A stretch of DNA of 64,000 nt from Enterobacter phage fGh-Ecl02. Positions 4,636 through 61,858 of the stretch are shown in pieces (positions within the stretch are counted from its first letter, which is position 1; the number at the start of each line of letters is the position of its first letter). The position numbers and the translations under genes are program-made. The stretch lies in the sequence record ON212266.1; one strand, written 5' to 3'. The notes beneath the pieces were generated by a model. That model was given only the letters and a program-made list of their open reading frames with translations. It did not search any database and had not been told where the DNA came from.

Positions 4636-4644
4636 TGCTATAAT
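4636..4644 (+). promoter_or_regulatory. extended -10 promoter TGcTATAAT between genes 45 and 44
   Basis: TGnTATAAT consensus. Confidence 0.45.
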
Positions 4645-6626: not shown

Positions 6627-7499
6627 ATGACAACTACATTTTCTAAGAACGTGAATCTGAATCTGGCTTTCGGTAATGCAAAGGGCGACGTCACATCGCC
6701 CGACTTTGGCAAGATCCGCAATCAGGCGAAACTGGTGCTGGAAGAAACCCGTGAACTGCTGGAAGCGGCGTATTTCGACCACGAGGTGAAAATTGAGTTC
6801 ACTGCATCTCCGCGAGTCCTGAAAGAACCCGTTGTTGTCGACATCAAAGACATTATGCGCCAGATCATGGATGCCCAGGGTGACATCACAACAGTCAACG
6901 ACGGCGTGGCTCATATTGCTGGTTTCGACGGTGACGAATGCCTACAGCGCGTGTATGCCTCTAACATGAGCAAGTTCATTCGTAATGAAGGTGAAGTTGT
7001 GCCTGCACTGGATTACTACTACAACAAAGGCTTCCCACGCGAAAGTCTACGCATCGAAGGGGAATTCCCTCAGGCGTGCATCAAAGTGGTAGACACCATC
7101 ACCGTCGACGGCAAAGAATACCCGGCTGGCAAGTTCCTGAAGAACATGGCAACCTTCAAAGAGCCTGACTTCTCTGATATGTTGACCGCCGAGCCTAAGC
7201 GCCAGATCACCGAAATCATTCTGACAGGTACGGCTACCCCAGGTCGACTCGGATGCAACGAACATGCTGGTGTTGCCTACGCGCCGTTCGATTTTATTGA
7301 CGAGATCGTGGGATACACCAAGATGGGCTTCCAGGCGTTCTCTGGCGAAACAGTCGAGAGCTACATTCCTGTGTTTGTTTTCAATGAAGATAACTTTCCA
7401 ACTCTACCGTTGATCTGGGGTGAATGGAAAGCCAACGTCCGTATCTATGTGGCCAGCCCAGTGCAATCATCTATAACCCAACTGACCCGTATCGATTAA
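6627..7499 (+). CDS. hypothetical protein (possible MazG/HisE-like all-alpha NTP-pyrophosphatase N-terminal region)
   Basis: 290 aa, GGAG SD. N-terminal helical region with a KLVLEETRELLEAA...D...E pattern, assignment weak. Confidence 0.45.
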   Translation: MTTTFSKNVNLNLAFGNAKGDVTSPDFGKIRNQAKLVLEETRELLEAAYFDHEVKIEFTASPRVLKEPVVVDIKDIMRQIMDAQGDITTVNDGVAHIAGFDGDECLQRVYASNMSKFIRNEGEVVPALDYYYNKGFPRESLRIEGEFPQACIKVVDTITVDGKEYPAGKFLKNMATFKEPDFSDMLTAEPKRQITEIILTGTATPGRLGCNEHAGVAYAPFDFIDEIVGYTKMGFQAFSGETVESYIPVFVFNEDNFPTLPLIWGEWKANVRIYVASPVQSSITQLTRID

Positions 7500-7567: not shown

Positions 7568-8791
7568 ATGAAAGATAAACCATATGACATCCCATATTGC
7601 GGTGTCCGTGAAACCAAAATCAAATCAGCCCATCCTATGTTAAGTTCATTCCACCGCCAGCTGGCATATGAATGGATGAGGGATCGTTATGCGATACATG
7701 TCAAGAAGGACGTGCAATGTCTTCCAGCGCCATGGACGGATAATCCGGTATTACGCCAAGTCAAGTTTTGTAACGTGCGGAGAGAGCACGATAGACAGTC
7801 TCGAAATTTGATCAATAATATCATCCTCAATCAGGATCTCACGCTATCTGACAAAATGTTCAACTGTGTATTGTTCCGCATGTACAACATGTGGGAACCT
7901 ATACAGGCTTTGGGTGGTCCATGGACGATCGAAGAATTCGGAAACATAAATCTTGAATGGTGTCGAAATGTTCTTCAGGAATTCGAATCTAAAGGTGGCA
8001 AAGTTTTCACCAATGCGTTTAATACAGGCGGTCTGAAACAATGCCTGGCTTTCCCCGAACTAGTTGTCAACCACAAGGAGCAGTGCTTCGGTGGGATGAT
8101 GGTGAATCTGATCTGTAAAGACGGTTCAACCCAGAACATGGATTACAAGAAAGCCAAGGCCATCGCTGAAGCAGAGCCGGACTTCTACACCATCGAAGGT
8201 TGGGAACCGTACATGCCAATGCGTGTCATCCGCTCCCTGAAGGCATTCGTCAACAAACACCCTCATTACTTTGATCGCCTCAGGGAATTTAGCCGTCCCG
8301 ACTCTGTTTACCAGGCGATGTATGACGACATTGAGGGGCTTGGACCATTCTTGGCATACCAGATTTGGGTTGATTTTACGTACATCGATGAATATCCATT
8401 CAGTGAAAACCACTTCACTATCGCTGGTCCCGGTTGCCGTGCTGGTATCGATCTGTTATTTTTGGACAAGGACGGCATGACGCATGAAGAATGCATATTC
8501 TGGGTTCGTGATCATCAAGATCAATTGTTCGCTCAGTATGGGTATAAACGTAATGAATTTTGGTCGGCAGAAGAACCGGAAGATCGTTGCATGAATGTTA
8601 TGCAGCTGGAGAACATGTTCTGTGAACTTCAGAAATATACCCGCTGCGTTGAGGCGGTGATGCGCGGGGAGAAACCTCGAGGAAAGGTGGGGTATGACGG
8701 GAATGGCAGTGCGTATAAGCAACGTTGTGATGAAGTCGTGCTCAAACGTGGTTCCGTCAATTTGCTGGACCGTTTGAAGAAACCTGAATAA
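7568..8791 (+). CDS. hypothetical protein (407 aa; candidate DNA base-modification enzyme)
   Basis: AGAGGA SD, preceded by a terminator. No confident motif. Sits where T4 has gene 43. Confidence 0.5.
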   Translation: MKDKPYDIPYCGVRETKIKSAHPMLSSFHRQLAYEWMRDRYAIHVKKDVQCLPAPWTDNPVLRQVKFCNVRREHDRQSRNLINNIILNQDLTLSDKMFNCVLFRMYNMWEPIQALGGPWTIEEFGNINLEWCRNVLQEFESKGGKVFTNAFNTGGLKQCLAFPELVVNHKEQCFGGMMVNLICKDGSTQNMDYKKAKAIAEAEPDFYTIEGWEPYMPMRVIRSLKAFVNKHPHYFDRLREFSRPDSVYQAMYDDIEGLGPFLAYQIWVDFTYIDEYPFSENHFTIAGPGCRAGIDLLFLDKDGMTHEECIFWVRDHQDQLFAQYGYKRNEFWSAEEPEDRCMNVMQLENMFCELQKYTRCVEAVMRGEKPRGKVGYDGNGSAYKQRCDEVVLKRGSVNLLDRLKKPE

Positions 8792-8905
8792 AGATTCCCT
8801 TTACTTCGTTCTTCAATAACTCAATCCAGCGTATATTAACCTCACTTAAACGAAGCGCCCTGACAAACGGGGCGCACATTTGAACTGAAACAGGAAGACT
8901 ACATC

Positions 8906-10924
8906 ATGTCAGAATTTAAGCCCTTCGCAGTAGCTGTCAACAATAACGTGCTGGCCATGTCAGCAACTGGTCTGTTCATGACCAACATCGATAAAGATGC
9001 TCTGTGGGATCTGTATCTGTCTTCTTTCCCTGCTGGCACTAACCCGCTTTATCGTGAGCGTACCGAGCACGACTGTACCTGCTGTAAACAATTCATCCGT
9101 AATATCGGCGGTGTGGTCACCATCGACTCCGACCTGAACGTGATCTCTATCTGGGATAACATTCAGCTGGGTAACGAATACGACGTTGTCGCTTCGGCGC
9201 TGTCAGCGTATGTTAAGCAGCACGCAATCGTCGACGTGTACTTCAACGACACCAAGAAAGTTGGTGTTGAGTCGAATCACGAAATGAAAGACGGTATTGT
9301 CCGCACCTACAACCACTTCCACACCGACCTGCTGGGCAGCTATGTTCTGCGGGCAGATACCATCGCTTCTAAGAAGGGTGAAATCCGCCAGGCGATTGAA
9401 GTGTTTGAGCGCGGCCTGCGTGAACTGTCTCTGGAATCGGCTGAAATCGTTCTTGAATTGATTGACCAGAATTCTCTGTATCGCGGTGAAGAGCACAAAG
9501 CGGCAGTGCAGGCGTTCGTGGTGAACAAGACCCTGTACGAACAAACTGCAGAAGAGAAACGCGCTCTGTGGGCTTGGCGCACTGGCTACCGTGCAAACGG
9601 TCATACCCCTCACGGCATTCGTAATACCGTGATTGGCTCTCTGCTGGTAGACCTCAATGAAGGTCGTGATCTGGAAACCGCCGTGAAGTCCTTTGAAGCC
9701 AAAGTCGCTCCGACGAACTACAAGCGCCCAACCGCGCTGGTCACGAAGTCCATGATTGAAAACGCGCAGAAAGAAGTCGAAGCGCTGGGTCTGACCGATT
9801 CACTGGGTCGCCGTTATGCCGTGTATGACGATCTGACCATCAACAACGTTCTGTTCGCCGATCTGGCAGTTCAGAAGAAGATGGACCCGTTTGCTCAGCT
9901 GGCGTCTGAAGTGAAGACTCCGACCAAGTCCCTGGACAAGGTTGAAGAGATCACGATCGACGACTTCCTGACCAACGTGTTGCCAAAGGCGCATTCCCTG
10001 GAAGTACTGGTCGAAAACTCTCACATTGGCAACCTGATGTCCCTGATCGCTCCGGCTACCGCAGGCGCTCCTAACCTGTTCAAGTGGAACAACGGCTTCA
10101 GCTGGTCGTACAATGGCGAAGTGGCCGACTCCATCAAAGAGCGCGTGAAGACCGCAGGCGGTAATGTCGACAGTTTCCTCCGTGTGTCACTGGCTTGGCA
10201 TAACAACGACGACCTGGATCTGAGCATGAACGATCCTCTTCACAACCACGTATATTTTCGCAACCGTCGTTCGTCAACTGGCGCAACTCTGGACATCGAT
10301 ATGAACGGTATGGATGGGATTGATCCAAACCGCCGTCCGGTGGAGAACATCTTCTTCAGCGATGAACGCAAGCTGCGTGACGGGAATTATGAGTTCTATG
10401 TCACCAACTTCAACAAGCGTGAAACCTGTGACGTTGGTTTCGAAATCGAAGTTGAATACAAAGGCCAGACTAAGCGCTTCTCACACCCTGGCCTGGGTAA
10501 CAAAGATCGCACGTTGGCTGTTGTGGTTCAGGTTCGCGCTGGTCAGGTGGTCAACATCAGTTCTACCCTGAAAGACGACGCTCGCTCTCAGGAAATCTGG
10601 GGCATCAAGACCTCCGTCTTCCAGAAGGTACAGCTGGTTCTGAACTCACCAAACCATTGGGACGGCGAGCAGACTGGCAACAAGCACGTGTTCTTCATCC
10701 TGGAAGGTTGCGCCAACCCTGTCGGCACCCGTGGTTTCTATAACGAATATCTGAAGCCGGAACTTGATAAACACCGCAAGGTTTTTGAAATGTTAGGTGG
10801 TAAGATTAAAGTACAGCCAAGCACTGAGCAGCTGTCCGGTCTGGGCTTCTCTACCACCCAACGCAACCACGTGTTCGTGAAGGTGAGCGGCTCTTTCAAC
10901 CGCACTGTGAAAGTTGTGTTCTAA
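8906..10924 (+). CDS. hypothetical large protein (672 aa) with N-terminal HDCTCC cysteine cluster
   Basis: AGGAAG SD. No P-loop and no polymerase or ligase motifs found. Confidence 0.5.
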   Translation: MSEFKPFAVAVNNNVLAMSATGLFMTNIDKDALWDLYLSSFPAGTNPLYRERTEHDCTCCKQFIRNIGGVVTIDSDLNVISIWDNIQLGNEYDVVASALSAYVKQHAIVDVYFNDTKKVGVESNHEMKDGIVRTYNHFHTDLLGSYVLRADTIASKKGEIRQAIEVFERGLRELSLESAEIVLELIDQNSLYRGEEHKAAVQAFVVNKTLYEQTAEEKRALWAWRTGYRANGHTPHGIRNTVIGSLLVDLNEGRDLETAVKSFEAKVAPTNYKRPTALVTKSMIENAQKEVEALGLTDSLGRRYAVYDDLTINNVLFADLAVQKKMDPFAQLASEVKTPTKSLDKVEEITIDDFLTNVLPKAHSLEVLVENSHIGNLMSLIAPATAGAPNLFKWNNGFSWSYNGEVADSIKERVKTAGGNVDSFLRVSLAWHNNDDLDLSMNDPLHNHVYFRNRRSSTGATLDIDMNGMDGIDPNRRPVENIFFSDERKLRDGNYEFYVTNFNKRETCDVGFEIEVEYKGQTKRFSHPGLGNKDRTLAVVVQVRAGQVVNISSTLKDDARSQEIWGIKTSVFQKVQLVLNSPNHWDGEQTGNKHVFFILEGCANPVGTRGFYNEYLKPELDKHRKVFEMLGGKIKVQPSTEQLSGLGFSTTQRNHVFVKVSGSFNRTVKVVF

Positions 10925-10968
10925 ACCTGATTTGAAATTGTGACCCATTCATCATTGAGGATAGTAAA

Positions 10969-11340
10969 ATGTTTGATAAAGCAACCCGTATGAAACTGCG
11001 CTTCGAGTCTAACAAAGGCCTGTTGTCTGTTGAGCAGGTCTGGGACCTGAGCCTGACTGCCCTGAACGAAATGGCGAAAGGTCTGAGCCGCCAGGTGAAA
11101 GCAGCAGAAACCGATGAAGAAGATTTCATTGGCACCAAAAGTAACGTTGACTCCGAACTGCAGCTGCGCTTCGACGTTGTCAAGCACATCATCGGCGTTA
11201 AGCTGAAAGAACGTGACGACAGCAGAGACGCGGCAGAGCGTAAGGCGAACAACCAGATTATCCTGGAGCTGATCCAGCGTAAGAAACAGCAAGAGCTGGA
11301 AAGCAAATCTGTTGAAGAACTGGAAGCGCTGCTGAAATAA
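10969..11340 (+). CDS. hypothetical charged/coiled-coil protein
   Basis: 123 aa, K/E-rich, followed by a strong intrinsic terminator. Confidence 0.5.
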   Translation: MFDKATRMKLRFESNKGLLSVEQVWDLSLTALNEMAKGLSRQVKAAETDEEDFIGTKSNVDSELQLRFDVVKHIIGVKLKERDDSRDAAERKANNQIILELIQRKKQQELESKSVEELEALLK

Positions 11341-11362
11341 CCCTGTTGGCCTCGGCCTGAGC

Positions 11363-11390
11363 AACCCCGCCATGTGCGGGGTTTCTTTTG
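11363..11390 (+). terminator. intrinsic terminator
   Basis: aaccccgc-catgt-gcggggtt + tcttttg. Confidence 0.75.
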
Positions 11391-11400
11391 GACAAAGAAT

Positions 11401-11811
11401 ATGAAACCTGTTATATGTGATTACTGTGGCCTCCCAGCCGAATTCGTCGGTGGTGATGTTCTCTACCCTCATCGCCCTGACCTCCGCAATCTGAAGTTCT
11501 GGGTGTGCACTCCATGTGATGCCCGTGTCGGTTGCCATGCCCATGGCGACGGCAGACAACCTTTGGGAAGGATGGCGAATGCCGCTCTCCGTGCTGCTAA
11601 GCAGGAAGCCCATAGATCGTTTGACCCATTGTGGAAAAGCGGAGAGAGGAGCAGGAGCGACGCTTACAGTTGGCTGGCGCATAAGCTGGGGATAAAGAAG
11701 CGTGAGTGTCATATTGGCTTGTTCGATATCGACATGTGCCGTAAAGTAGTTGTTGTCTGTCAACAATACGAGGTACATATCAATGTCAAAGGAAATACAA
11801 GAAGCGTTTGA
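11401..11811 (+). CDS. zinc-finger (CxxC...CxxC) domain protein
   Basis: Start at Met10 of the track ORF. CDYCG...CTPCDARVGCH cysteine pattern. Confidence 0.45.
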   Translation: MKPVICDYCGLPAEFVGGDVLYPHRPDLRNLKFWVCTPCDARVGCHAHGDGRQPLGRMANAALRAAKQEAHRSFDPLWKSGERSRSDAYSWLAHKLGIKKRECHIGLFDIDMCRKVVVVCQQYEVHINVKGNTRSV

Positions 11812-12088
11812 GAATCTAACTCAGGCGCTCACCAACTGCAACCGTCTCAACTATTGCAACGACCCATTGCAAAAGCTGAAGTCCCTGGTAGAATCAGAAC
11901 TGGCTAAACTGGCCGAATACAACGCCATCCAAGAAGACGTGGTGTTCATGTCGGACACGGTCGTAGACACCCTTCCGCGCGAAGTGTACAATGTATTGGG
12001 TCGCATCGCAAAGGTGGGTTTCCGTGAACCACAAGACGCCAAACCCACCCCCGAAATTCTTACATCCATCGTTGACTCGTTTAAGTGA
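11783..12088 (+). CDS. hypothetical protein
   Basis: 101 aa (MSKEIQ...), overlaps the end of the upstream gene. Confidence 0.4.
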   Translation: MSKEIQEAFENLTQALTNCNRLNYCNDPLQKLKSLVESELAKLAEYNAIQEDVVFMSDTVVDTLPREVYNVLGRIAKVGFREPQDAKPTPEILTSIVDSFK

Positions 12089-12095
12089 GACCACC

Positions 12096-12329
12096 ATGTC
12101 TAAAGAGATTATTTTTACCGGGGCGGCGCTTGACACCATGTATGCCCTGTACAATCGTGGTCCACTGAGCATTGGCGATATCCCGTCTAAGTCAGGTCTG
12201 GACTTCCTGTTGCGACATAAGCTGGTTGTGGCTGTGGTAGTCAGGGGTGAAACGCAATACGCCGGGTCGATGGCCATGGCTTCCCACTACAAACGTCAGA
12301 CATGGAAGGGCGCTTCCTCCAAATCCTGA
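12096..12329 (+). CDS. hypothetical protein
   Basis: 77 aa (MSKEIIF...), internal Met of the track ORF just after the upstream stop. Confidence 0.35.
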   Translation: MSKEIIFTGAALDTMYALYNRGPLSIGDIPSKSGLDFLLRHKLVVAVVVRGETQYAGSMAMASHYKRQTWKGASSKS

Positions 12330-12397: not shown

Positions 12398-12406
12398 TGG
12401 TATAAT
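12398..12406 (+). promoter_or_regulatory. extended -10 promoter TGgTATAAT
   Basis: TGnTATAAT 29 nt before the ATG at 12435. Confidence 0.45.
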
Positions 12407-54607: not shown

Positions 54608-54635
54608 AGTTTACATCTATGAAAATGCAGTATAT
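54608..54635 (+). promoter_or_regulatory. T4-type early promoter GTTTAC-N16-TATATT with upstream A-tract
   Basis: Matches T4 early -35 GTTTAC. Confidence 0.5.
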
Positions 54636-54706
54636 TATGTTCTCACTACACAGTCAGAACAACAATATGCCGCGGATACGGTCTTAATAACGAAAGGGTT
54701 TTTATT

Positions 54707-55543: not shown

Positions 55544-55579
55544 ATTTAAGTTCAGAAACTGTTCAATAGATGAAGGGGT

Positions 55580-55588
55580 TGCTATAAT
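55580..55588 (+). promoter_or_regulatory. extended -10 promoter TGcTATAAT upstream of the kinase-hydroxymethylase operon
   Basis: TGnTATAAT 31 nt before the ATG at 55619. Confidence 0.45.
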
Positions 55589-55618
55589 AGCAGCTCCTTT
55601 TGTTTATCGGAGCAGTTT

Positions 55619-56278
55619 ATGTCCTACTCCCTGAAGGGGCTGATGAAGCGCCCCGTCCACACATTCTTTAAACCACCCGTCGTAAAGGGGATCTACCCAG
55701 CACGAGGGCAAATCTACTACGTCAAAGGCTCCAATGGTAGCGGTAAATCCACTGTGCCGTCTCAGCTGGCGGAGAGGGATCCTCAGGCGTATGTCGTGAC
55801 CCATAACGGCAAGGTCATGCTGACTGTCTGTCCTTCGTTCAACGTGGTGTGTATCGGTAAATATGACAAGTCGAAGTCCAAGGGGGTTGATTCCCTGAAG
55901 GACACTGAGCAGATGTTGTTCGCGTTGTCTATTGCTGACCAACCAGAATACTTGAAATATGATGTGATTTTCGAAGGTATCATTCCATCAACATTATTGA
56001 GTTCTTGGATCCCCCGCCTGACACGCCCACCACGTGAATTGGTTGTGCTCTTTATGGACACTCCCCTTGAAACGTGTATCTCCCGCGTTAAATCACGTAA
56101 CGGTGGTGTGGACTTCAATGAAGGTCTGGTGGTCGAGAAGTGGGAGAGAGTTCATGACCATCGTCAACGACATAAAGACTTGTTCCCTACGGTGGCTGCG
56201 GGTATGATGAAGTCTCACGGCCTAACGGTAGACCAGGCTGTGATGGCATTCCTCTGTCGTGATTTTGGGAGTATCTGA
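55619..56278 (+). CDS. P-loop kinase (candidate 5-hydroxymethyl-pyrimidine DNA kinase / polynucleotide-kinase-like)
   Basis: YYVKGSNGSGKSTVPSQLAE Walker A. 219 aa, kinase domain only. 1-nt overlap (TGATG) with the hydroxymethylase gene. Extended -10 TGcTATAAT upstream. Confidence 0.55.
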   Translation: MSYSLKGLMKRPVHTFFKPPVVKGIYPARGQIYYVKGSNGSGKSTVPSQLAERDPQAYVVTHNGKVMLTVCPSFNVVCIGKYDKSKSKGVDSLKDTEQMLFALSIADQPEYLKYDVIFEGIIPSTLLSSWIPRLTRPPRELVVLFMDTPLETCISRVKSRNGGVDFNEGLVVEKWERVHDHRQRHKDLFPTVAAGMMKSHGLTVDQAVMAFLCRDFGSI

Positions 56279-57324
56279 TGGAAATCAAATCAATTAACAA
56301 TAATGACATGCTGAAGCAGGCTGTCTTGGCTATCCGTGAATTCGGGATCGAATCTGATCCTGGTAATGCTGAAATCAATACTGATAGCACCCGCTTCCTT
56401 GATGGTGTGACGATCACTGTTTCCGATATTCGTGACCGCTGGCTCTCCGTTGAAGGTCGCAACTCATCGGCTATCGCTGCCATCGGCGAGACCTTCTGGG
56501 TGTTGTCAGGTCGCAACGACATAAAGTTCCTGTCACGTGTATTGCCTCGCGCTGCTAACTTTTCGGATGATGGGGTAACATGGCGAGCTGCTTATGGTCC
56601 GCGTCTGTACGCCCATGGCCAGCTGGATAGCGTTATCAACCGCCTGCGCAAGAACCCAAACACTCGCCAGGCGTACCTCACTATTTATGATCCGGCTTTG
56701 GATTCGGATGCTGGTCTGGCGAAGTTCAGCGAGAGCGGCGAAGCAAAGACTAAGGACATGGTGTGTAACCTGGCTCTGTTGTTCGCCATCGTTGAAGGTC
56801 GTCTGAACCTGACGGTCATCAATCGCTCACAGGATGTTCTGTGGGGGATGAGTTCAATTAACTTCATTGAGTTCTCTATTCTTCAGGAAGTGATTGCTCG
56901 GGTGCTGGATGTTGATGTCGGTCAGTACAAGCTATTCTCTAACAATCTTCATTACTACAACAATGAAGTCAGCCAGAAGCAGCTGGGCAAGATCACGAAG
57001 GACACCAAAGTAGAAGCTGGGTTCATCAACTCCATGATTCACTTCACGAACGTGACCAACCAGAACCATATCCGCAATCTGTTCACTGGTGTGCTTCATC
57101 ACTGTGATATCGGTAGCCCGTGGGAAACTGTGGTCGCTCACCTGAAGGAATACGATGCGGATCGCGGTCTGATTTTGCAGATGGCATACTGCCTGCACTG
57201 CAAATTGAATAACAAGCTCATTAACCTGGACCTGATTCAGGATCATGGCTTGAACACCGCGCTCACCCATTCCCCGGTTGACCGCAAGATCATTGATCCT
57301 AAGTTCCTGGAAGGTGTAGTATGA
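56278..57324 (+). CDS. deoxypyrimidine-nucleotide hydroxymethylase (thymidylate synthase superfamily, T4 gp42-like)
   Basis: RQAYLTIYDP versus gp42 RRGIMIYTRP. KDMVCNLALLFAIVEGRLNLTVINRSQDVLWGM versus gp42 DFMCTNTVQYLIRDKKINAVVNMRSNDVVFGF, including the catalytic Cys. Confidence 0.75.
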   Translation: MEIKSINNNDMLKQAVLAIREFGIESDPGNAEINTDSTRFLDGVTITVSDIRDRWLSVEGRNSSAIAAIGETFWVLSGRNDIKFLSRVLPRAANFSDDGVTWRAAYGPRLYAHGQLDSVINRLRKNPNTRQAYLTIYDPALDSDAGLAKFSESGEAKTKDMVCNLALLFAIVEGRLNLTVINRSQDVLWGMSSINFIEFSILQEVIARVLDVDVGQYKLFSNNLHYYNNEVSQKQLGKITKDTKVEAGFINSMIHFTNVTNQNHIRNLFTGVLHHCDIGSPWETVVAHLKEYDADRGLILQMAYCLHCKLNNKLINLDLIQDHGLNTALTHSPVDRKIIDPKFLEGVV

Positions 57325-57890
57325 TGTACCCAAATCTTGAATTCTTTACGGGGCGCAAGCGCTCCGGTAAGGACTTCTGTTTGGAGTCCCTGATCAGTTA
57401 CCACCACTTACAGGGTGATATGGACATACAGCGCCTTTCTTTCTCTGATGAACTGCGCCGTGTAGCCAACTACATCTACCCATGGCTCCCAGCGGAGGTA
57501 GAGGATGCCGTGAAGGACGTTCCTTACGTGCACCCTGATAACCCCAAGGGCTTAACTCCACGGCAGATCTGGCTTCATCTAGGCAGCGATACGGGCTTGC
57601 GTTACGTACAACCTGATCTGTTCCTGGCATTCTTCAAGCGCTTCCAGCTTCCTCTGGTAGAGCAGAACCCCCACGTCCATTATATCGTGAGCGATCTGCG
57701 TACCCCTCAGGAATATGAATGGGCGCTGAGTACGAAATGTCCTATCACCCGTATTTCAAAGGCCGACCGTGCTGGTATCATAGAGGACGATATAGAGGCT
57801 TTCATTGACCAAATGAAAGTGGACTACGAATTCCTCAATCCATTTGATGGTTGGGAACCGTTCGTTAAATTCTACGGAGAACGTAAATGA
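57321..57890 (+). CDS. 1: deoxynucleoside monophosphate kinase (T4 gene 1-like)
   Basis: FTGRKRSGKDF versus T4 gp1 SGVKRSGKDT. SDLRTPQEYEWA versus PDTRQDHEMDAA. ATGA overlap with the upstream gene. Confidence 0.7.
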   Translation: MMYPNLEFFTGRKRSGKDFCLESLISYHHLQGDMDIQRLSFSDELRRVANYIYPWLPAEVEDAVKDVPYVHPDNPKGLTPRQIWLHLGSDTGLRYVQPDLFLAFFKRFQLPLVEQNPHVHYIVSDLRTPQEYEWALSTKCPITRISKADRAGIIEDDIEAFIDQMKVDYEFLNPFDGWEPFVKFYGERK

Positions 57891-58441
57891 TCACAGCAGG
57901 GCATATCCAAAGCCTGCTCGAACTCCAAAAGGCCACCAACGTGGCCTACTTTGGGGAAGAGTGGAAGAATGTATGGAGTCAGAATGCAGTCATCAACTCT
58001 ATCTATCGTGAGTGGGCAGAGTTCCTTGATGAAACCACCCGTGACTGGAAGGTCTATGGCAACGACATCGGGTTTGACCATACGAACGCAGTTTATGAAC
58101 TGGTGGACGTGGTACACTTCATGTTGTGCTTCATCCTTGTGGACCGCACCAAAGGTGAGATCGAAGAAGAATTTGAAGTCCTTAGTAATCGCGAATTCAC
58201 CCCATCTGCTTTGGGTGTTGTAGGGCATCGTAATGTTACGTACCGCCTTGGGCAATTCATGAACGACCCTTGCGTTGAGACTCTCATGTTCTTCCTGTCG
58301 TCTGCGTGTTCTTATATGGAGATCGACATTGAGACTTACATACTGGCACACAAACGCAAGAACGATCGCAATCGTCTGCGTGCTTCTGGTGGCGCGGATT
58401 ACGACAAGTCCGCAGAAACCCCTCTGACCTTGGAGTTCTAA
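57887..58441 (+). CDS. all-alpha dimeric dUTPase/dCTPase (T4 gp56-like, MazG-type)
   Basis: AVYELVDVVHFMLCFIL versus T4 gp56 IKFELVDIFHFVLNMFV. 184 aa. ATGA overlap. Confidence 0.65.
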   Translation: MITAGHIQSLLELQKATNVAYFGEEWKNVWSQNAVINSIYREWAEFLDETTRDWKVYGNDIGFDHTNAVYELVDVVHFMLCFILVDRTKGEIEEEFEVLSNREFTPSALGVVGHRNVTYRLGQFMNDPCVETLMFFLSSACSYMEIDIETYILAHKRKNDRNRLRASGGADYDKSAETPLTLEF

Positions 58442-58986
58442 TGTTTACAGTCGTCGTTTCATACCATGCGGAGAACGCTGCTCAGGCATCCTCCAAATTC
58501 GCCGAGCACATCATCGGCGGCGGCCATAATGTATTCCTTACTGAATACAACAGGCCTGTTAAACCGGGCGACGGTCTTTCGGCGACTGTTACGCATAAGA
58601 TCGCCAGCGAGCAACCAGAGTCTCTGTTCAGAATGATCGAAGAATATGCCGGTGGTGGTGGCACCAAGATACCAGATGAACTGGTAGACGTCTATTTTGA
58701 AGGCTCGATCTATTACATCCACGCTATGCCAAAGGATATAACCATTGAACAGATGATGTATATCCTGAATATAGCACTGAACACTGCGTGCATCAACCGC
58801 ACGAACTACAACAATCTGCGCAATATGTACCTAACCGACCGGCATAATGACGCATCGTCACTTGTTGAGACAATGTCCCTGAAGAGCATCCAAGAGGCGG
58901 TTAACATTTTGTCCCAGAAGGTTATGGGTGTAGACTTACTAACGACGATTAACAACAAAGAGGAAGTGAAATGGCCAGTTCATTAA
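58441..58986 (+). CDS. hypothetical protein
   Basis: 181 aa, coupled between the dUTPase and uvsX. Confidence 0.45.
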   Translation: MFTVVVSYHAENAAQASSKFAEHIIGGGHNVFLTEYNRPVKPGDGLSATVTHKIASEQPESLFRMIEEYAGGGGTKIPDELVDVYFEGSIYYIHAMPKDITIEQMMYILNIALNTACINRTNYNNLRNMYLTDRHNDASSLVETMSLKSIQEAVNILSQKVMGVDLLTTINNKEEVKWPVH

Positions 58987-60056
58987 TGGACCGCATGCTG
59001 AAGGTTGCTAAGAAACACGATGACCAGGCTTCAGTGCTGTCCCAATCAGACGCTCTGGAACCGTCTATCATCTGTTCTACTGGTATTCCCCTGATCGACA
59101 TCGCATGGTCTGGGCGTATTGACGGCGGCCTGATCTCCGGTATCAAGATGATGGTGGGTGATTCCCGTACCTTCAAAACGATGTTCGGTCTGGTGGACGT
59201 CAAGGCGTACATGGACAAGTTCCCTGATGCTATCTGCGTCTTTGCGGACTCAGAAAAGGGTGCCAACGCTGATTACTGGACCTCTATGGGCATTGACATG
59301 GACCGCGTCCTGTACGTACCGATCGACAACGTTGAACAGACCAAGATCCGCTTGCTGCAGATCCTACAGGAAGTCAAGAAAGGCGACCATGTTATAATCT
59401 TCATCGACTCTATCAGCCAACTTCCCTCCACCAAGGAAGTTGAAGATGCGATCAAAGGGAACGACACTCAAGACATGACCCGCGCCCGTGCCCTCAACAG
59501 CTTCTGGCGTGTCATGACTCCTGAAATCAACAGCAAAAATCTCGTGTGTGTTTGGATCAACTCCTATTACGATGAGATCGGCAACCAGTATGCCGAGCCA
59601 AACATCAAAGGCGGCAAGCAGGGCTTCTTATCCTCCAACTTGATCTGGTTTATCACCCGTTCTCAGGTGAAGGAAGACAAAGATCTGCTGGGCTGGAACT
59701 TCAACATAAGCATCATGAAAGGTCGCCATGTCAAAGAGAAAGCCAAGCTCCCTGTGACGGTACTGTACAACGGCGGCATTGATCGCTGGAGCGGCCTGCT
59801 TGAGATCGCTCGTGCTCTGGGTTATGTTGATATGCCGTCTTCCGGCTGGTATGTGCGTACAGCCAAGGGTGGTTTCGATCCTGAGAAGGAAAAGAAATAT
59901 CAGAAGCGTCAGATGGGTGATGATTTCTGGTATCCGCTGCTGGAGAATGTCAACTTCGCCGATGACGTGAAGAAGATGTTCGGTGTTTCTAACGGTACTG
60001 TTATGCCTGCGAACATGCTGGAGCAAATGGACCATGTTATTAACACAAGCGAATAA
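58971..60056 (+). CDS. uvsX: UvsX recombinase (RecA/Rad51 family)
   Basis: GIPLIDIAWSG...GDSRTFKT Walker A, FPDAICVFADSE, VIIFIDSISQL and MTRARALNSFWRV parallel T4 UvsX blocks. Confidence 0.85.
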   Translation: MASSLMDRMLKVAKKHDDQASVLSQSDALEPSIICSTGIPLIDIAWSGRIDGGLISGIKMMVGDSRTFKTMFGLVDVKAYMDKFPDAICVFADSEKGANADYWTSMGIDMDRVLYVPIDNVEQTKIRLLQILQEVKKGDHVIIFIDSISQLPSTKEVEDAIKGNDTQDMTRARALNSFWRVMTPEINSKNLVCVWINSYYDEIGNQYAEPNIKGGKQGFLSSNLIWFITRSQVKEDKDLLGWNFNISIMKGRHVKEKAKLPVTVLYNGGIDRWSGLLEIARALGYVDMPSSGWYVRTAKGGFDPEKEKKYQKRQMGDDFWYPLLENVNFADDVKKMFGVSNGTVMPANMLEQMDHVINTSE

Positions 60057-60369
60057 CAGTGGAGGGGGAGGAGACTCCCCCAATAACTACACAATCATCG
60101 ACCCTGGTGCTGATCAGCTGGCGATCATCAAGATTACTTCTGGCAAATTCCGTGGTGTTCAATTCCGGTTCGGCAAAGTGGCTATTAACGAAGTGGACGG
60201 CGAACCCCGCCTGTCTTTCGTGACTGATATATTGAAGAAACCATTGCGTCTGATGTTTGTGAATTTGAAAGAAAATGACTTGTTCACTGAGGTGTCAGGG
60301 GATATCCTTGTAGACCTCATGCAGCGTAATGCTCAGGAATATAATAAATTTTTGGTGGGGTAGTGGCCA

Positions 60370-61794
60370 ATGTTACTCGAATCTGTCGTGCTTTCACAGT
60401 TGATTTACAATGAAGATTACCAAAGAAAGATCCTGCCGTACCTGAAAGCCGATTATTTTGACAACGAAGGCGAAAAGGTCATCTTTGGTCTGATTGACAG
60501 TTATACCTCAGAGTACAATGCCCGCCCGTCTGTCGAAGCACTATCTATAATTCTTGAACGGACAAAGCTGAACGAATATGTGTTTGACCAGGCGGTATCT
60601 GCCCTGGAGAACATCAACGACAACACCTTCAATGAAGAGTGGCTGGCGAAGGAAACCGAGGCTTGGGCGCGGCAAAAGGCCGTACACAACGCAATCAAGA
60701 CCGCCGTCAACATCTACGGTGACGAGAAGCGCAAGGACGAGATGAACAACATCCCGACCATGTTGCAGGAAGCCCTGGCGATCCGGTTTGATTCATACCT
60801 CGGTCACATCTATTGGGAGATGGCGGCAGAGCAGTATGACCACATGAACTCCAACGAGGCCAAGATCCCGTTCGCAGTTGAGATATTCAATAAGGCGACA
60901 CGTGGTGGCGTTGGTAAGAAGACACTGAACATCGTAACAGGCGCGATCAACGCAGGTAAGACCACAACGCTGATTGACCTGACCGCAGGGTACTCGGAGC
61001 AGGGACTGAACGTCTTTGTCTTCACCCTTGAAGTGGCCGAGAACGTCTGGCGACACCGTCTTGATGCCCGTATCATGCGACGCGACTTTGAGTCTTTAGA
61101 GAAACTCACAAGGCACGAGTATATTGCAACGATAGAGAAGCTCCGCAGTCGCCAAGACGGTGCGCCCAAGGGTGATATCGTCATCAAGGAATATCCTTCC
61201 GGTGCTGGACACACAGGTTTATTCCGCCGCGATATCCTTGAGTACATCCAGGCAACTGGTCGTGCTCCCGATGTTATCGTTATTGACTATCTTGGCGAAG
61301 CTGCTTCCTCGCGCTTGCCTGCCCACCTGATGCAGAACACGAACGTCTATTACACGTCTGTGGCTCGTGAGTTTCGTGCGCTGGGATTTGAGTTTGATGT
61401 CCCTGTATGGACTGGTATGCAGTTCAATCGTGAGAATCAGAATAGCACTGATGGCGGAATCAGTGATTTGGCAGATGCTATCGGTATTCCGAAGGTGGCC
61501 GACTTCATCATGGCATTCTATGCTCCTGACGAACTGGCGGCGGTCAAGAAAGCCCGAGCCTCAATACTCAAGAACCGTTATGCCAACAAGCAGAAGCTGA
61601 AATCATTCCTGTTTGGTATGGACCAAGACAAACAGATCCTGTTTGACCTGGACTGGAACGAAGTTAAGAAGGACCTGACTGAGGCTGAGGCCAAATATGT
61701 CGAAAACGTACACATCAAACATGACCTCAACAAGTCCGGGGCTACTGCCAGCGATGAGCAGAAAGCTCAAACAGTCAATAATTGGAAATTCTAG
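60370..61794 (+). CDS. 41: replicative DNA helicase gp41 (DnaB family)
   Basis: DnaB N-terminal domain, GAINAGKTT Walker A, VIVIDYLGE Walker B. 474 aa. Confidence 0.85.
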   Translation: MLLESVVLSQLIYNEDYQRKILPYLKADYFDNEGEKVIFGLIDSYTSEYNARPSVEALSIILERTKLNEYVFDQAVSALENINDNTFNEEWLAKETEAWARQKAVHNAIKTAVNIYGDEKRKDEMNNIPTMLQEALAIRFDSYLGHIYWEMAAEQYDHMNSNEAKIPFAVEIFNKATRGGVGKKTLNIVTGAINAGKTTTLIDLTAGYSEQGLNVFVFTLEVAENVWRHRLDARIMRRDFESLEKLTRHEYIATIEKLRSRQDGAPKGDIVIKEYPSGAGHTGLFRRDILEYIQATGRAPDVIVIDYLGEAASSRLPAHLMQNTNVYYTSVAREFRALGFEFDVPVWTGMQFNRENQNSTDGGISDLADAIGIPKVADFIMAFYAPDELAAVKKARASILKNRYANKQKLKSFLFGMDQDKQILFDLDWNEVKKDLTEAEAKYVENVHIKHDLNKSGATASDEQKAQTVNNWKF

Positions 61795-61858
61795 GCAATT
61801 CAATAAGGCGGGTCATAGGGTATAATTCTATGATCTGAATGTAAACCAGGAGCACATC

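What the first reader, a model, noticed from the sequence alone, without database searches (positions are those of the whole stretch)
55580..60056. Translationally coupled pyrimidine base-modification module fused to the uvsX operon
Five genes run with 1-4 nt start/stop overlaps (TGATG, ATGA, ATGA, TAATG) directly into uvsX: a kinase-only P-loop protein (GSNGSGKST), a gp42/thymidylate-synthase-family hydroxymethylase, a gene-1-like dNMP kinase, a gp56-like all-alpha dUTPase/dCTPase and a 181-aa unknown. A single extended -10 promoter (TGcTATAAT at 55580) serves the operon. A hydroxymethylase + dNMP kinase + NTP pyrophosphatase set is the classical route to a non-canonical pyrimidine in DNA (T4 hmC, SPO1 hmU). 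A stand-alone P-loop kinase immediately upstream is the arrangement reported for 5-hmdU DNA kinases in phages that hypermodify thymidine (ViI-like, phiW-14, SP10). The 181-aa ORF inside the operon has no assignment and could be a further pathway component.
Basis: partly seen in the sequence, partly recalled or inferred. Interest (0 to 1): 0.75.

Follow-up and report, generated by a model that had tools for sequence, protein, structure and literature searches.

The report
Known phage thymidine-hypermodification gene module

Summary
Five genes (55619-58986, + strand) overlap by 1, 4, 4 and 1 nt and run into uvsX with a 16-nt overlap. The tight string continues through a 109-aa ORF and the gp41-type helicase to 61794.

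The window is an Agtrevirus-like Ackermannviridae phage, 98% identical here to Escherichia phage vB_EcoM-ZQ1. The 219-aa P-loop protein matches Pfam HMUDK_HMUD1 (E=1e-108) and is 88% identical to ViI gp67, an experimentally shown 5-hmdU DNA kinase. The next three genes are a dUMP-hydroxymethylase-type thymidylate-synthase homologue, a dNMP kinase and a dimeric-dUTPase-type pyrophosphatase. ViI, LIMEstone1 and distant metagenomic relatives carry the same genes in the same order.

The rest of the ViI 5-NeOmdU pathway lies outside the region. A gp160 orthologue sits in the window at 7568-8791. The gp226, gp243 and gp247 orthologues are present in ZQ1.

Two points stay open. The 'promoter' TGCTATAAT sits at the apex of a conserved terminator-like hairpin. 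The 181-aa ORF belongs to Pfam ACT_phage, has no known function and is confined to this operon position.

Verdict: interpretation supported, already published (Kutter 2011; Lee 2018, 2021), low interest.

The parts
55572..55610 (+). Intergenic hairpin plus T-run (terminator-like).
   Evidence: Terminator scan gives 13 pairs, loop 3, tail TGTTTATCGG. RNA fold -32.9 kcal/mol, z=-6.2. All 82 pair cells are paired in 7 relatives, with one compensatory U-A to C-G change. The LIMEstone1 record annotates a factor-independent terminator at the homologous place. TGNTATAAT occurs 7 times in the window against 1.27 expected.
55619..56278 (+). 5-hydroxymethyl-dU DNA kinase (5-HMUDK), orthologue of ViI gp67; kinase domain only.
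   Evidence: PF18748 E=1.1e-108. 87.7% identity to ViI gp67 over 219 aa. 100% identical to a protein of Escherichia phage A221. ViI gp67 activity is shown in PMC8989533.
56278..57324 (+). dUMP hydroxymethylase (thymidylate-synthase superfamily).
   Evidence: PF00303 E=1e-15, but 57.8 bits against NCBIfam TS equivalog cut-offs of 108-427. Best solved relative is MilA CMP hydroxymethylase at 1.4e-17, against TS at 1e-6 to 1e-9. Cys163 matches E. coli C146 and Asn195 matches E. coli N177 / T4 gp42 D179. 77% identity to ViI thyA. Best hits outside the family are hmU or hypermodifying phages. Kutter 2011 phylogeny, PMC3184105.
57321..57890 (+). dNMP kinase, presumed to convert 5-hmdUMP to 5-hmdUDP.
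   Evidence: phrog_139 E=1e-47. 91% identity to ViI dnk. P-loop G-KRSGKD shared with T4 gp1; pairwise E=0.003.
57887..58441 (+). All-alpha (dimeric dUTPase-type) dNTP pyrophosphatase, presumed dUTPase and/or dTTPase.
   Evidence: PF08761 dUTPase_2 E=7e-9 and phrog_173 E=3e-40. Campylobacter jejuni dimeric dUTPase 1w2y E=9e-4, with the E..E and E..D motifs aligned. 60% identity to the ViI orthologue. T4 gp56 matches only over ELVDxxHF.
58441..58986 (+). ACT_phage family protein of unknown function; its 3' end overlaps the uvsX start by 16 nt.
58971..60056 (+). UvsX-type RecA-like recombinase.
   Evidence: PF00154 E=2e-15, PF21134 T4_UVSX_C E=6e-9, phrog_97 E=5e-95.
60034..60363 (+). 109-aa ORF of unknown function, in the position that gene 40 holds in T4.
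   Evidence: ATG at 60034. Annotated at the homologous place in relatives. No Pfam or NCBIfam hit. No similarity to T4 gp40, E=0.46.
60370..61794 (+). gp41-type DnaB-like replicative helicase; last gene of the tightly packed string.
   Evidence: PF03796 E=6e-14 and phrog_19 E=9e-101. A 64-nt gap follows.
7568..8791 (+). Orthologue of ViI gp160 (aGPT-Pplase clade 1; Pfam 'HMUDK_hel'). A second hypermodification-associated gene, 47 kb away in the same window.
   Evidence: tblastn with ViI gp160 gives 78.9% identity over 407 aa. PF18723 E=2.4e-83. gp160 was one of the five ViI lysates used to reconstitute 5-NeOmdU (PMC5889632).

Best explanation
The block is the pre-replicative half of the Ackermannviridae thymidine-hypermodification pathway, plus the first post-replicative step.

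Inferred by homology and by analogy to hmU phages:
- The pyrophosphatase (D) clears dUTP, and probably dTTP, and yields dUMP.
- The TS-like enzyme (B) adds a hydroxymethyl group from methylene-tetrahydrofolate to C5 of dUMP.
- The dNMP kinase (C) makes 5-hmdUDP. Host NDP kinase then makes 5-hmdUTP, which the phage polymerase incorporates instead of dTTP.

Shown for the 88%-identical ViI orthologue:
- After replication, the 219-aa kinase (A) transfers the gamma-phosphate of ATP to the hydroxymethyl group of 5-hmdU in DNA, giving 5-PmdU.

Genes outside the region then finish the job. A gp247-type serine:DNA transferase displaces the phosphate to give O-serinyl-T, and a gp226-type PLP decarboxylase gives 5-(2-aminoethoxy)methyl-dU (5-NeOmdU). 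This final product is inferred for this phage. It has been shown for ViI and CBA120.

The genes are expressed as one translationally coupled string with the replication and recombination genes uvsX and gp41. The 181-aa ACT-like protein travels with the block, but its role is unknown.
For: Family and orthology: PF18748 E=1e-108. Identity to the ViI orthologues is 88/77/91/60/55% for A to E, in identical gene order. The same order occurs in LIMEstone1, ChubbyThor and three distant metagenomic contigs.

Biochemistry in the literature:
- ViI gp67, purified, phosphorylates 5-hmdU in DNA. gp247 is a serine:DNA transferase and gp226 a PLP decarboxylase (PMC8989533).
- ViI virion DNA carries 5-NeOmdU. 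5-HMUDK co-associates with dUMP hydroxymethyltransferase. AG3, SKML-39 and LIMEstone are listed as 5-HMUDK-encoding ViI-like phages (PMC5889632).
- CBA120 does not incorporate 3H-thymidine, and the TS homologues of CBA120, ViI and AG3 cluster with hmU-phage enzymes (PMC3184105).

Residue level for B: catalytic Cys163 and Asn195 at the uracil/cytosine-discriminating position. It shares a one-residue insertion, a CN motif and a roughly 100-aa C-terminal extension with the PaMx11 and SPO1-like enzymes. It falls far below the TS equivalog cut-offs.

Rest of the pathway: a gp160 orthologue is in the window. ZQ1, 98.3% identical over this region, has gp226 (91%), gp243 (47%) and gp247 (88.6%).
Against: - No chemistry exists for this phage or, in the papers read here, for any Agtrevirus. 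The end product is extrapolated from the Kuttervirus phages ViI and CBA120.
- The window does not contain gp226, gp243 or gp247, so their presence rests on near-identical relatives.
- The substrates of C and D are inferred only. D is the second most diverged gene (60% to ViI).
- A MazG-like gene neighbours gp160 in ViI. Its positional counterpart in the window (6627-7499, no Pfam hit) could share or take the dTTP-clearing role.
- The role of E is unknown.
Confidence: 0.88

Rival explanations
1. Regulation rival. The block has no promoter of its own. It is transcribed from the sigma-70-like site upstream of the preceding gene (54610-54638), and the hairpin at 55572-55600 acts as a leaky terminator or attenuator. 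On this reading TGCTATAAT is simply the A+T-rich top of the stem.
For: - The hairpin plus T-run is called terminator-like, folds at -32.9 kcal/mol with z=-6.2, and stays fully paired in 7 relatives with one compensatory change.
- The most distant relative (L011) loses the TG of the extended -10, and LIMEstone1 has TATTAT.
- The LIMEstone1 record annotates a terminator here and an early promoter upstream of the preceding gene.
- The 54610 site is the best promoter-like match in the region, 10 of 12.
Against: - TGNTATAAT is about five-fold enriched in the window, 7 against 1.27.
- TATAAT is retained in 6 of 7 relatives.
- A start about 7 nt downstream of the -10 would give a sensible 5' UTR of about 23 nt carrying the GGAG.
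- An efficient terminator directly in front of essential early genes would need some bypass.
- The two roles are not mutually exclusive.
Confidence: 0.4
2. The end product differs from ViI. The module still supplies 5-PmdU in DNA, but this lineage attaches a different group, or leaves hmU or T.
For: - Clade-2 aGPT-Pplases of different phages transfer different nucleophiles: serine, glycine, putrescine (PMC8989533).
- The second kinase (gp243) is only 47% identical in ZQ1.
- No chemical analysis of an Agtrevirus was found in the papers read.
Against: - The gp247 orthologue of the closest relative is 88.6% identical and gp226 is 91%.
- The review states that the modification genes are conserved across the family (PMC11721090).
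Confidence: 0.08
3. Ordinary nucleotide metabolism. A is a thymidylate kinase (or, as RefSeq and PHROG label it, a small terminase), B is a true thymidylate synthase, and the DNA is canonical.
For: phrog_761 'thymidylate kinase' E=2e-6 and phrog_800 'terminase small subunit' E=1e-67. Many GenBank records call B 'thymidylate synthase' and A 'thymidylate kinase'.
Against: - The HMUDK Pfam match is far stronger, and the ViI orthologue's activity on DNA was demonstrated.
- ViI has a separate small terminase next to its large terminase.
- B scores 57.8 bits against TS cut-offs of 108 bits or more.
- CBA120 excludes thymidine.
Confidence: 0.03

Closest known systems
Salmonella phage ViI (Vi01) genes Vi01_061c-056c: gp67 5-HMUDK, thyA/dU-hmt, dnk, dUTPase, orf62, uvsX. 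Also coliphage CBA120.
   Same: Same six genes in the same order and orientation, with the same kind of overlaps, followed by the same small ORF and the gp41 helicase. The kinase is 88% identical. The remaining pathway genes are conserved in close relatives.
   Different: Different genus (Agtrevirus-like rather than Kuttervirus). The pyrophosphatase and the ACT-like protein are only 60% and 55% identical. The product has not been measured chemically for this lineage.
Bacillus hmU phages (SPO1, SP8, phi-e) pre-replicative pathway.
   Same: dUMP hydroxymethylase, dNMP kinase and dNTP pyrophosphatase together replace dTTP with 5-hmdUTP (PMC8989533 introduction). The SPO1-like Goe19 enzyme shares the Cys, the Asn, the CN motif and the C-terminal extension with B.
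   Different: SPO1-type phages keep hmU in the virion and have no 5-HMUDK. Sequence identity is only about 28-34%.
T4 hmC system (gp42, gp1, gp56, beta-gt) and the T4 gene order 42 - beta-gt - segA - uvsX - 40 - 41.
   Same: Same logic: hydroxymethylase, dNMP kinase and pyrophosphatase, followed by a post-replicative DNA-modifying enzyme. The modification genes occupy the same chromosomal neighbourhood, directly upstream of uvsX - small ORF - gp41.
   Different: Cytosine rather than uracil (T4 D179 against Asn195 here). The post-replicative step is glucosylation, not phosphorylation. Pairwise similarity is marginal: E=5e-5, 0.005 and 0.003. In T4, genes 1 and 56 lie elsewhere.
Pseudomonas phages M6 and PaMx11, Delftia phage phiW-14, Bacillus phage SP10 (other 5-HMUDK phages).
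   Same: 5-HMUDK next to or near a dUMP hydroxymethylase, with 5-PmdU as the common intermediate. The PaMx11 TS-like enzyme is the best non-Ackermannviridae hit listed for B in the sampled ('spread') tblastn output, at 36% identity.
   Different: In those phages the transferase and tailoring enzymes are clustered with the kinase, and SP10 fuses the kinase to an aGPT-Pplase. Here the kinase stands alone and the downstream enzymes are scattered. The kinase is 28-31% identical to the M6-like Pseudomonas-phage kinases listed. None of them has the ACT_phage gene.

Membership tests
[quoted passage not shown] | Full-length match to the family profile above the curated cut-off. | tested here: met
   E=1.1e-108, 361.6 bits against a cut-off of 27; residues 14-208 on profile positions 1-195 of 196.
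[quoted passage not shown] | P-loop (Walker A) NTP-binding motif. | tested here: met
   GSNGSGKST at residues 37-45, read from the translation.
[quoted passage not shown] | Orthology to a biochemically validated member. | tested here: met
   87.7% identity over the full length to ViI gp67 (YP_004327432) in the syntenic position. Activity of gp67 is shown in PMC8989533.
[quoted passage not shown] | Genomic association with a dUMP hydroxymethylase and an aGPT-Pplase. | tested here: met
   The hydroxymethylase-type gene overlaps the kinase's stop codon. An aGPT-Pplase1-type gene is at 7568-8791.
[quoted passage not shown] | ATP-dependent phosphorylation of 5-hmdU within DNA. | not testable with these tools
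   Needs a kinase assay on hmU DNA.
dUMP hydroxymethylase (TS superfamily, hmU-phage clade) | TS fold with a catalytic cysteine nucleophile. | tested here: met
   PF00303 E=1e-15. Cys163 aligns with E. coli C146 and is invariant in alignment A4.
dUMP hydroxymethylase (TS superfamily, hmU-phage clade) | Asn (uracil) rather than Asp (cytosine) at the base-discriminating position. | tested here: met
   Asn195 aligns with E. coli N177 and T4 gp42 D179. The PaMx11 and SPO1-like enzymes have the same Asn.
dUMP hydroxymethylase (TS superfamily, hmU-phage clade) | Not a canonical thymidylate synthase. | tested here: met
   57.8 bits or less against NCBIfam TS equivalog cut-offs of 108-427. The TS C-terminus is replaced by a roughly 110-aa extension shared with hmU-phage enzymes. 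The closest solved structure is a hydroxymethylase, MilA.
dUMP hydroxymethylase (TS superfamily, hmU-phage clade) | Product is 5-hmdUMP (water addition instead of hydride transfer). | not testable with these tools
   No sequence motif known to me decides this. It rests on the ViI/CBA120 chemistry and on phylogeny.
Dimeric all-alpha dUTPase / NTP-PPase (Pfam PF08761) | Profile match and acidic metal-binding motifs. | tested here: met
   36.7 bits against a cut-off of 22.9. The EwaEfld and ElvDvvHf motifs align with C. jejuni dUTPase 1w2y.
Dimeric all-alpha dUTPase / NTP-PPase (Pfam PF08761) | Substrate (dUTP, dTTP or dCTP). | not testable with these tools
   Inferred only.
T4 gp1-type dNMP kinase | Family profile and the unusual P-loop G-x-KRSGKD. 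| tested here: met
   phrog_139 E=1e-47. GRKRSGKD here against GVKRSGKD in T4 gp1; pairwise E=0.003. No Pfam family reaches its cut-off.
ACT domain proteins (small-ligand-binding regulators) | Beta-alpha-beta-beta-alpha-beta fold. | tested here: met
ACT domain proteins (small-ligand-binding regulators) | Specific relationship to ACT rather than to any ferredoxin-like fold; ligand binding. | tested here: inconclusive
   S6, CutA, PII-like and HPPK score equally well. A sequence profile finds nothing in the PDB. No classic ACT Pfam family is hit; only PF24021.

The most novel reading that the evidence does not exclude
The 181-aa ACT_phage protein (58441-58986) could be a so-far-unrecognised working part of the thymine-replacement programme. 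Examples would be a ligand-sensing regulatory subunit of the hydroxymethylase or pyrophosphatase, or an inhibitor of host dTMP synthesis. From my own knowledge, not checked here, hmU phages of Bacillus are known to induce such an inhibitor. An alternative is that it is a UvsX partner.

The supporting evidence is positional. In every relative examined it is locked between the pyrophosphatase and uvsX, with a conserved 13-16 nt overlap. It exists almost nowhere else (20 representatives among 1.84 billion proteins).

A second, smaller possibility is that the hairpin at 55572-55600 is a bifunctional terminator/promoter element.
Probability: 0.15. Interest if true: 0.45.

Novelty: already known. 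Interest (0 to 1): 0.15.

Why it matters
It matters little beyond correct annotation. The pathway, its enzymes and this gene arrangement were described for ViI-like phages (Kutter 2011; Lee 2018, 2021). AG3-type (Agtrevirus) phages are listed there explicitly.

Practical value:
1. The window's phage should be expected to carry hypermodified thymidine. ViI-type 5-NeOmdU DNA resists about 60% of commercial restriction enzymes according to the review. From my own knowledge, such DNA may also complicate nanopore base-calling and cloning.
2. Public annotations of the kinase as 'terminase small subunit' or 'thymidylate kinase' are wrong and still propagate.
3. The ACT_phage protein and the hairpin-embedded -10 are small, well-defined open questions.

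Tried and rejected
- Looked for ViI gp226, gp243 and gp247 in the window by tblastn. None is present; only gp160 and gp67 match. They were found in the close relative ZQ1 instead.
- Looked for a solved structure of the kinase. Only P-loop-level noise, E of 0.009 or worse.
- Looked for solved relatives of the dNMP kinase. None at E of 0.1 or better.
- Looked for transcript or TSS data for this phage family in the paper library. None found. A possibly relevant preprint on promoter-terminator coupling could not be opened.
- Scanned ten further window ORFs for a dCMP deaminase or another pathway enzyme. None found among those tested.
- Rejected 'small terminase' for A and 'true thymidylate synthase' or 'dCMP hydroxymethylase' for B, for the reasons given under rival explanations.
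- Loci fetched by accession (L002-L004, L012, L015) were not visible to the Python sandbox, so the ViI and T4 comparisons were made with the comparison tools instead.

Full report
OBSERVATION. I read the junctions directly:
- kinase/TS-like: TGATG, 1 nt shared
- TS-like/dNMP kinase: ATGA, 4 nt
- dNMP kinase/pyrophosphatase: ATGA, 4 nt
- pyrophosphatase/181-aa ORF: TAATG, 1 nt
- 181-aa ORF/uvsX: 16-nt overlap

Every downstream start is preceded by a GGAG/GAGG-type ribosome-binding site inside the preceding gene. A 109-aa ORF (60034-60363) overlaps uvsX by 23 nt, and the gp41-type helicase (60370-61794) follows after 6 nt. No + strand terminator-like site is predicted inside. Overlaps of this kind recur in my crude ORF map of the window, so they are real but typical of phage genomes. 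The kinase/TS-like overlap is not universal. LIMEstone1 has a 16-nt gap there, and one metagenomic relative has an extra 189-aa ORF there.

WHAT THE WINDOW IS. The 4.6-kb region is 98.3% identical to Escherichia phage vB_EcoM-ZQ1. It is 97-98% identical to the next seven listed phages (including A221, RPN242 and the Agtrevirus vB_CECAV_050) and 96.7% to AV101. It is about 92% identical to Shigella phage Ag3 and 89% to the Dickeya limestoneviruses. Records of this group are classified Ackermannviridae; Aglimvirinae; Agtrevirus.

THE GENES.

A (219 aa). A matches Pfam PF18748 'HMUDK_HMUD1, 5-hmdU DNA kinase' end to end, with E=1.1e-108 and 361 bits against a cut-off of 27. It is 87.7% identical to ViI gp67, which lies at the same place in the same gene order. 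It is kinase-only, because the profile fills the protein. PHROG and RefSeq call this family 'terminase small subunit', and some records say 'thymidylate kinase'. These are mis-annotations. ViI has a separate small terminase next to its large terminase, and purified gp67 phosphorylates 5-hmdU in DNA (PMC8989533).

B (348 aa). B is a thymidylate-synthase-superfamily protein (PF00303, E=1e-15) that fails every NCBIfam TS equivalog cut-off, with 57.8 bits or less against 108-427. Its closest solved structure is the CMP hydroxymethylase MilA at E=1.4e-17, ahead of true TS at 1e-6 to 1e-9. In an alignment with ViI, PaMx11, an SPO1-like Bacillus phage, T4 gp42 and E. coli ThyA:
- the catalytic Cys (C163) is invariant;
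- Asn195 sits where E. coli has N177 and T4 gp42 has D179, which is the uracil-type residue;
- the four hmU-phage-type enzymes share a one-residue insertion before that Asn, a Cys-Asn motif, and a long C-terminal extension in place of the TS C-terminus.

In the sampled ('spread') tblastn listing, the strongest hits to B outside the Ackermannviridae include phages that make hmU or hypermodified T (PaMx11 36%, M6-like, Bordetella CN2, SPO1-like). Canonical T4-like TS genes are marginal. Kutter et al. 2011 reached the same conclusion by phylogeny for CBA120, ViI and AG3, and showed that CBA120 does not incorporate 3H-thymidine (PMC3184105).

C (189 aa). C is a dNMP kinase (phrog_139, E=1e-47; 91% identical to ViI dnk). 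It shares the unusual G-x-KRSGKD P-loop with T4 gp1, but pairwise similarity is marginal at E=0.003.

D (184 aa). D is a dimeric all-alpha dUTPase-family pyrophosphatase (PF08761, E=7e-9; phrog_173, E=3e-40). Its acidic motifs align with Campylobacter dUTPase 1w2y. Its link to T4 gp56 is only the ELVDxxHF motif, at E=0.005.

uvsX and the helicase. Both are clear.

THE 181-aa ORF (E). E is not unassigned. It is a full-length member of Pfam PF24021 'Phage ACT-like domain' (E=3e-77) and of phrog_3839, which has unknown function.
- The family is tiny: 16 clusters in the word-indexed search and 20 representatives among 1.84 billion in an exhaustive profile search.
- In every context I read (ViI, LIMEstone1, ChubbyThor and three increasingly distant metagenomic contigs) it lies between the dUTPase_2 gene and uvsX and overlaps the uvsX start by 13-16 nt.
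- By tblastn it occurs in 269 phage records. By organism name nearly all are phages of enterobacterial hosts of the kind that also carry this module; I did not check each record's classification. None is among the M6-like, phiW-14 or SP10 hypermodifying phages.
- The AlphaFold model (mean pLDDT 71) has a confident N-terminal beta-alpha-beta-beta-alpha-beta domain and a poorly predicted helical tail.
- BFVD finds only uncharacterised orthologues, and a profile search of the PDB finds nothing.
- The invariant C-terminal KEEVKWPVH is partly explained by dual coding, since it contains the uvsX ribosome-binding site and start codon.

The function of E remains unknown. It is not a general component of thymidine hypermodification, but it is a fixed passenger of this operon.

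THE 'PROMOTER'. TGCTATAAT is at 55580-55588, and TGNTATAAT is enriched in the window at 7 sites against 1.27 expected. Several sites are intergenic. The motif is, however, the apex of a strong hairpin (55572-55600; -32.9 kcal/mol, z=-6.2) followed by TTTTGTTTAT. That is a textbook intrinsic-terminator shape directly after the stop codon of the upstream gene.

Across seven relatives all 82 pair cells stay paired. There are two wobble intermediates and one compensatory U-A to C-G change. With so few sequences this is consistent with a structure, not proof of one. The most distant relative keeps TATAAT but loses the TG, and LIMEstone1 has TATTAT. The LIMEstone1 record annotates a factor-independent terminator here and an early promoter upstream of the preceding gene. 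That promoter corresponds to the best sigma-70-like site in my scan, at 54610 with 10 of 12 matches.

Kutter et al. noted that early promoters of this family could not be identified bioinformatically, and I found no transcript maps. The element may be a terminator, a promoter, or both. 'A single promoter serves the operon' is therefore unproven.

HOW IT MOST LIKELY WORKS.

Inferred from homology and from the hmU-phage paradigm summarised in PMC8989533:
- D removes dUTP, and probably dTTP, and feeds dUMP.
- B hydroxymethylates dUMP.
- C makes the diphosphate, and host NDK makes 5-hmdUTP.
- The phage polymerase incorporates 5-hmdU in place of T.

Shown for the ViI orthologue:
- A phosphorylates the hydroxymethyl group of 5-hmdU in DNA, giving 5-PmdU.

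Downstream steps are shown for ViI and encoded outside this region:
- gp247 (serine:DNA transferase) gives O-seryl-T.
- gp226 (PLP decarboxylase) gives 5-NeOmdU.

The window itself holds an orthologue of ViI gp160, the clade-1 aGPT-Pplase, at 7568-8791 (79% identity; PF18723, E=2e-83). The nearest sequenced relative, ZQ1, has gp226 (91%), gp243 (47%) and gp247 (88.6%). The end product in this lineage is an extrapolation. The review PMC11721090 says only that conservation of the genes suggests all family members carry the modification.

COMPARISON AND NOVELTY. The block is the orthologue of ViI genes Vi01_061c to 056c. Lee et al. 2018 list AG3, SKML-39 and LIMEstone among 5-HMUDK-encoding ViI-like phages and note that 5-HMUDK co-associates with dUMP hydroxymethyltransferase. 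The logic parallels T4 (gp42, gp1, gp56, then a DNA-level modifier). The chromosomal position parallels T4 too, whose order is 42 - beta-gt - segA - uvsX - 40 - 41. The base, the chemistry and the sequences nonetheless differ. I rate this as already known.

What remains open is small and well defined: the role of the ACT_phage protein, and whether the hairpin is a terminator, a promoter or both.

Noticed in passing
window 7568-8791 (+): Orthologue of ViI gp160, the clade-1 aGPT-Pplase (Pfam names it 'HMUDK_hel'): 79% identity, PF18723 E=2e-83. This is a second hypermodification-associated gene in the window, far from the kinase. Its role is unresolved even in ViI. The adjacent ORF 6627-7499 sits where ViI has a MazG-like pyrophosphatase, but it has no Pfam hit.
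   Followed up: partly
window 55619-56278; RefSeq records such as NC_015296, NC_019925, NC_013693: The 5-hmdU DNA kinase family is labelled 'terminase small subunit' in PHROGs (phrog_800) and in many RefSeq phage records, and 'thymidylate kinase' elsewhere. ViI has a separate small terminase next to its large terminase, so these names are propagated errors.
   Followed up: yes
window 4636, 12398, 15645(-), 37359(-), 46822(-), 55580, 59390: TGNTATAAT (extended -10) occurs 7 times against 1.27 expected. At 12398, as at 55580, the motif lies in the loop of a hairpin just upstream of a start codon. At 4636 it directly precedes a G+C-rich terminator-like hairpin. This could reflect coupled terminator/promoter elements.
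   Followed up: partly
window 56278-58986 compared with ViI (L002) and Kuttervirus S117/FEC14: Divergence is uneven along the operon: kinase 88%, TS-like 77%, dNMP kinase 91%, pyrophosphatase 60% and ACT-like 55% identity to ViI. The TS-like protein is nevertheless 93% identical to that of other kutterviruses (S117, FEC14). This suggests gene-sized exchange between genera.
   Followed up: no
L006 (Escherichia phage ZQ1) 11845-13443 and 6171-10353: In the closest relative, the second kinase (ViI gp243 orthologue, 47% identity) occupies the C-terminal part of a 532-aa ORF annotated as 'homing endonuclease'. The DNA polymerase there is annotated in pieces with an ORF in between. Both look like mobile-element insertions or fusions near the modification genes.
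   Followed up: no
L012 (T4) 8050-12220 compared with window 55619-61794: T4 has the order 42 (hydroxymethylase) - beta-gt - segA - uvsX - 40 - 41. Here it is kinase - hydroxymethylase - ... - uvsX - 109-aa ORF - 41. The base-modification genes therefore sit in the same neighbourhood in both lineages, although the 109-aa ORF shows no similarity to gp40 (E=0.46).
   Followed up: partly
L009 4260-4829; L005 5501-6240: One metagenomic relative has an extra 189-aa ORF with no Pfam hit inserted between the kinase and the hydroxymethylase. LIMEstone1 has a longer annotated kinase ORF and a 16-nt gap. The first junction of the coupled string is therefore evolutionarily flexible.
   Followed up: no
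window 61795-61858: The 64-nt gap after the helicase gene contains GGTATAAT about 30 nt upstream of the next start codon (61859). It is a possible -10 for the following transcription unit.
   Followed up: no
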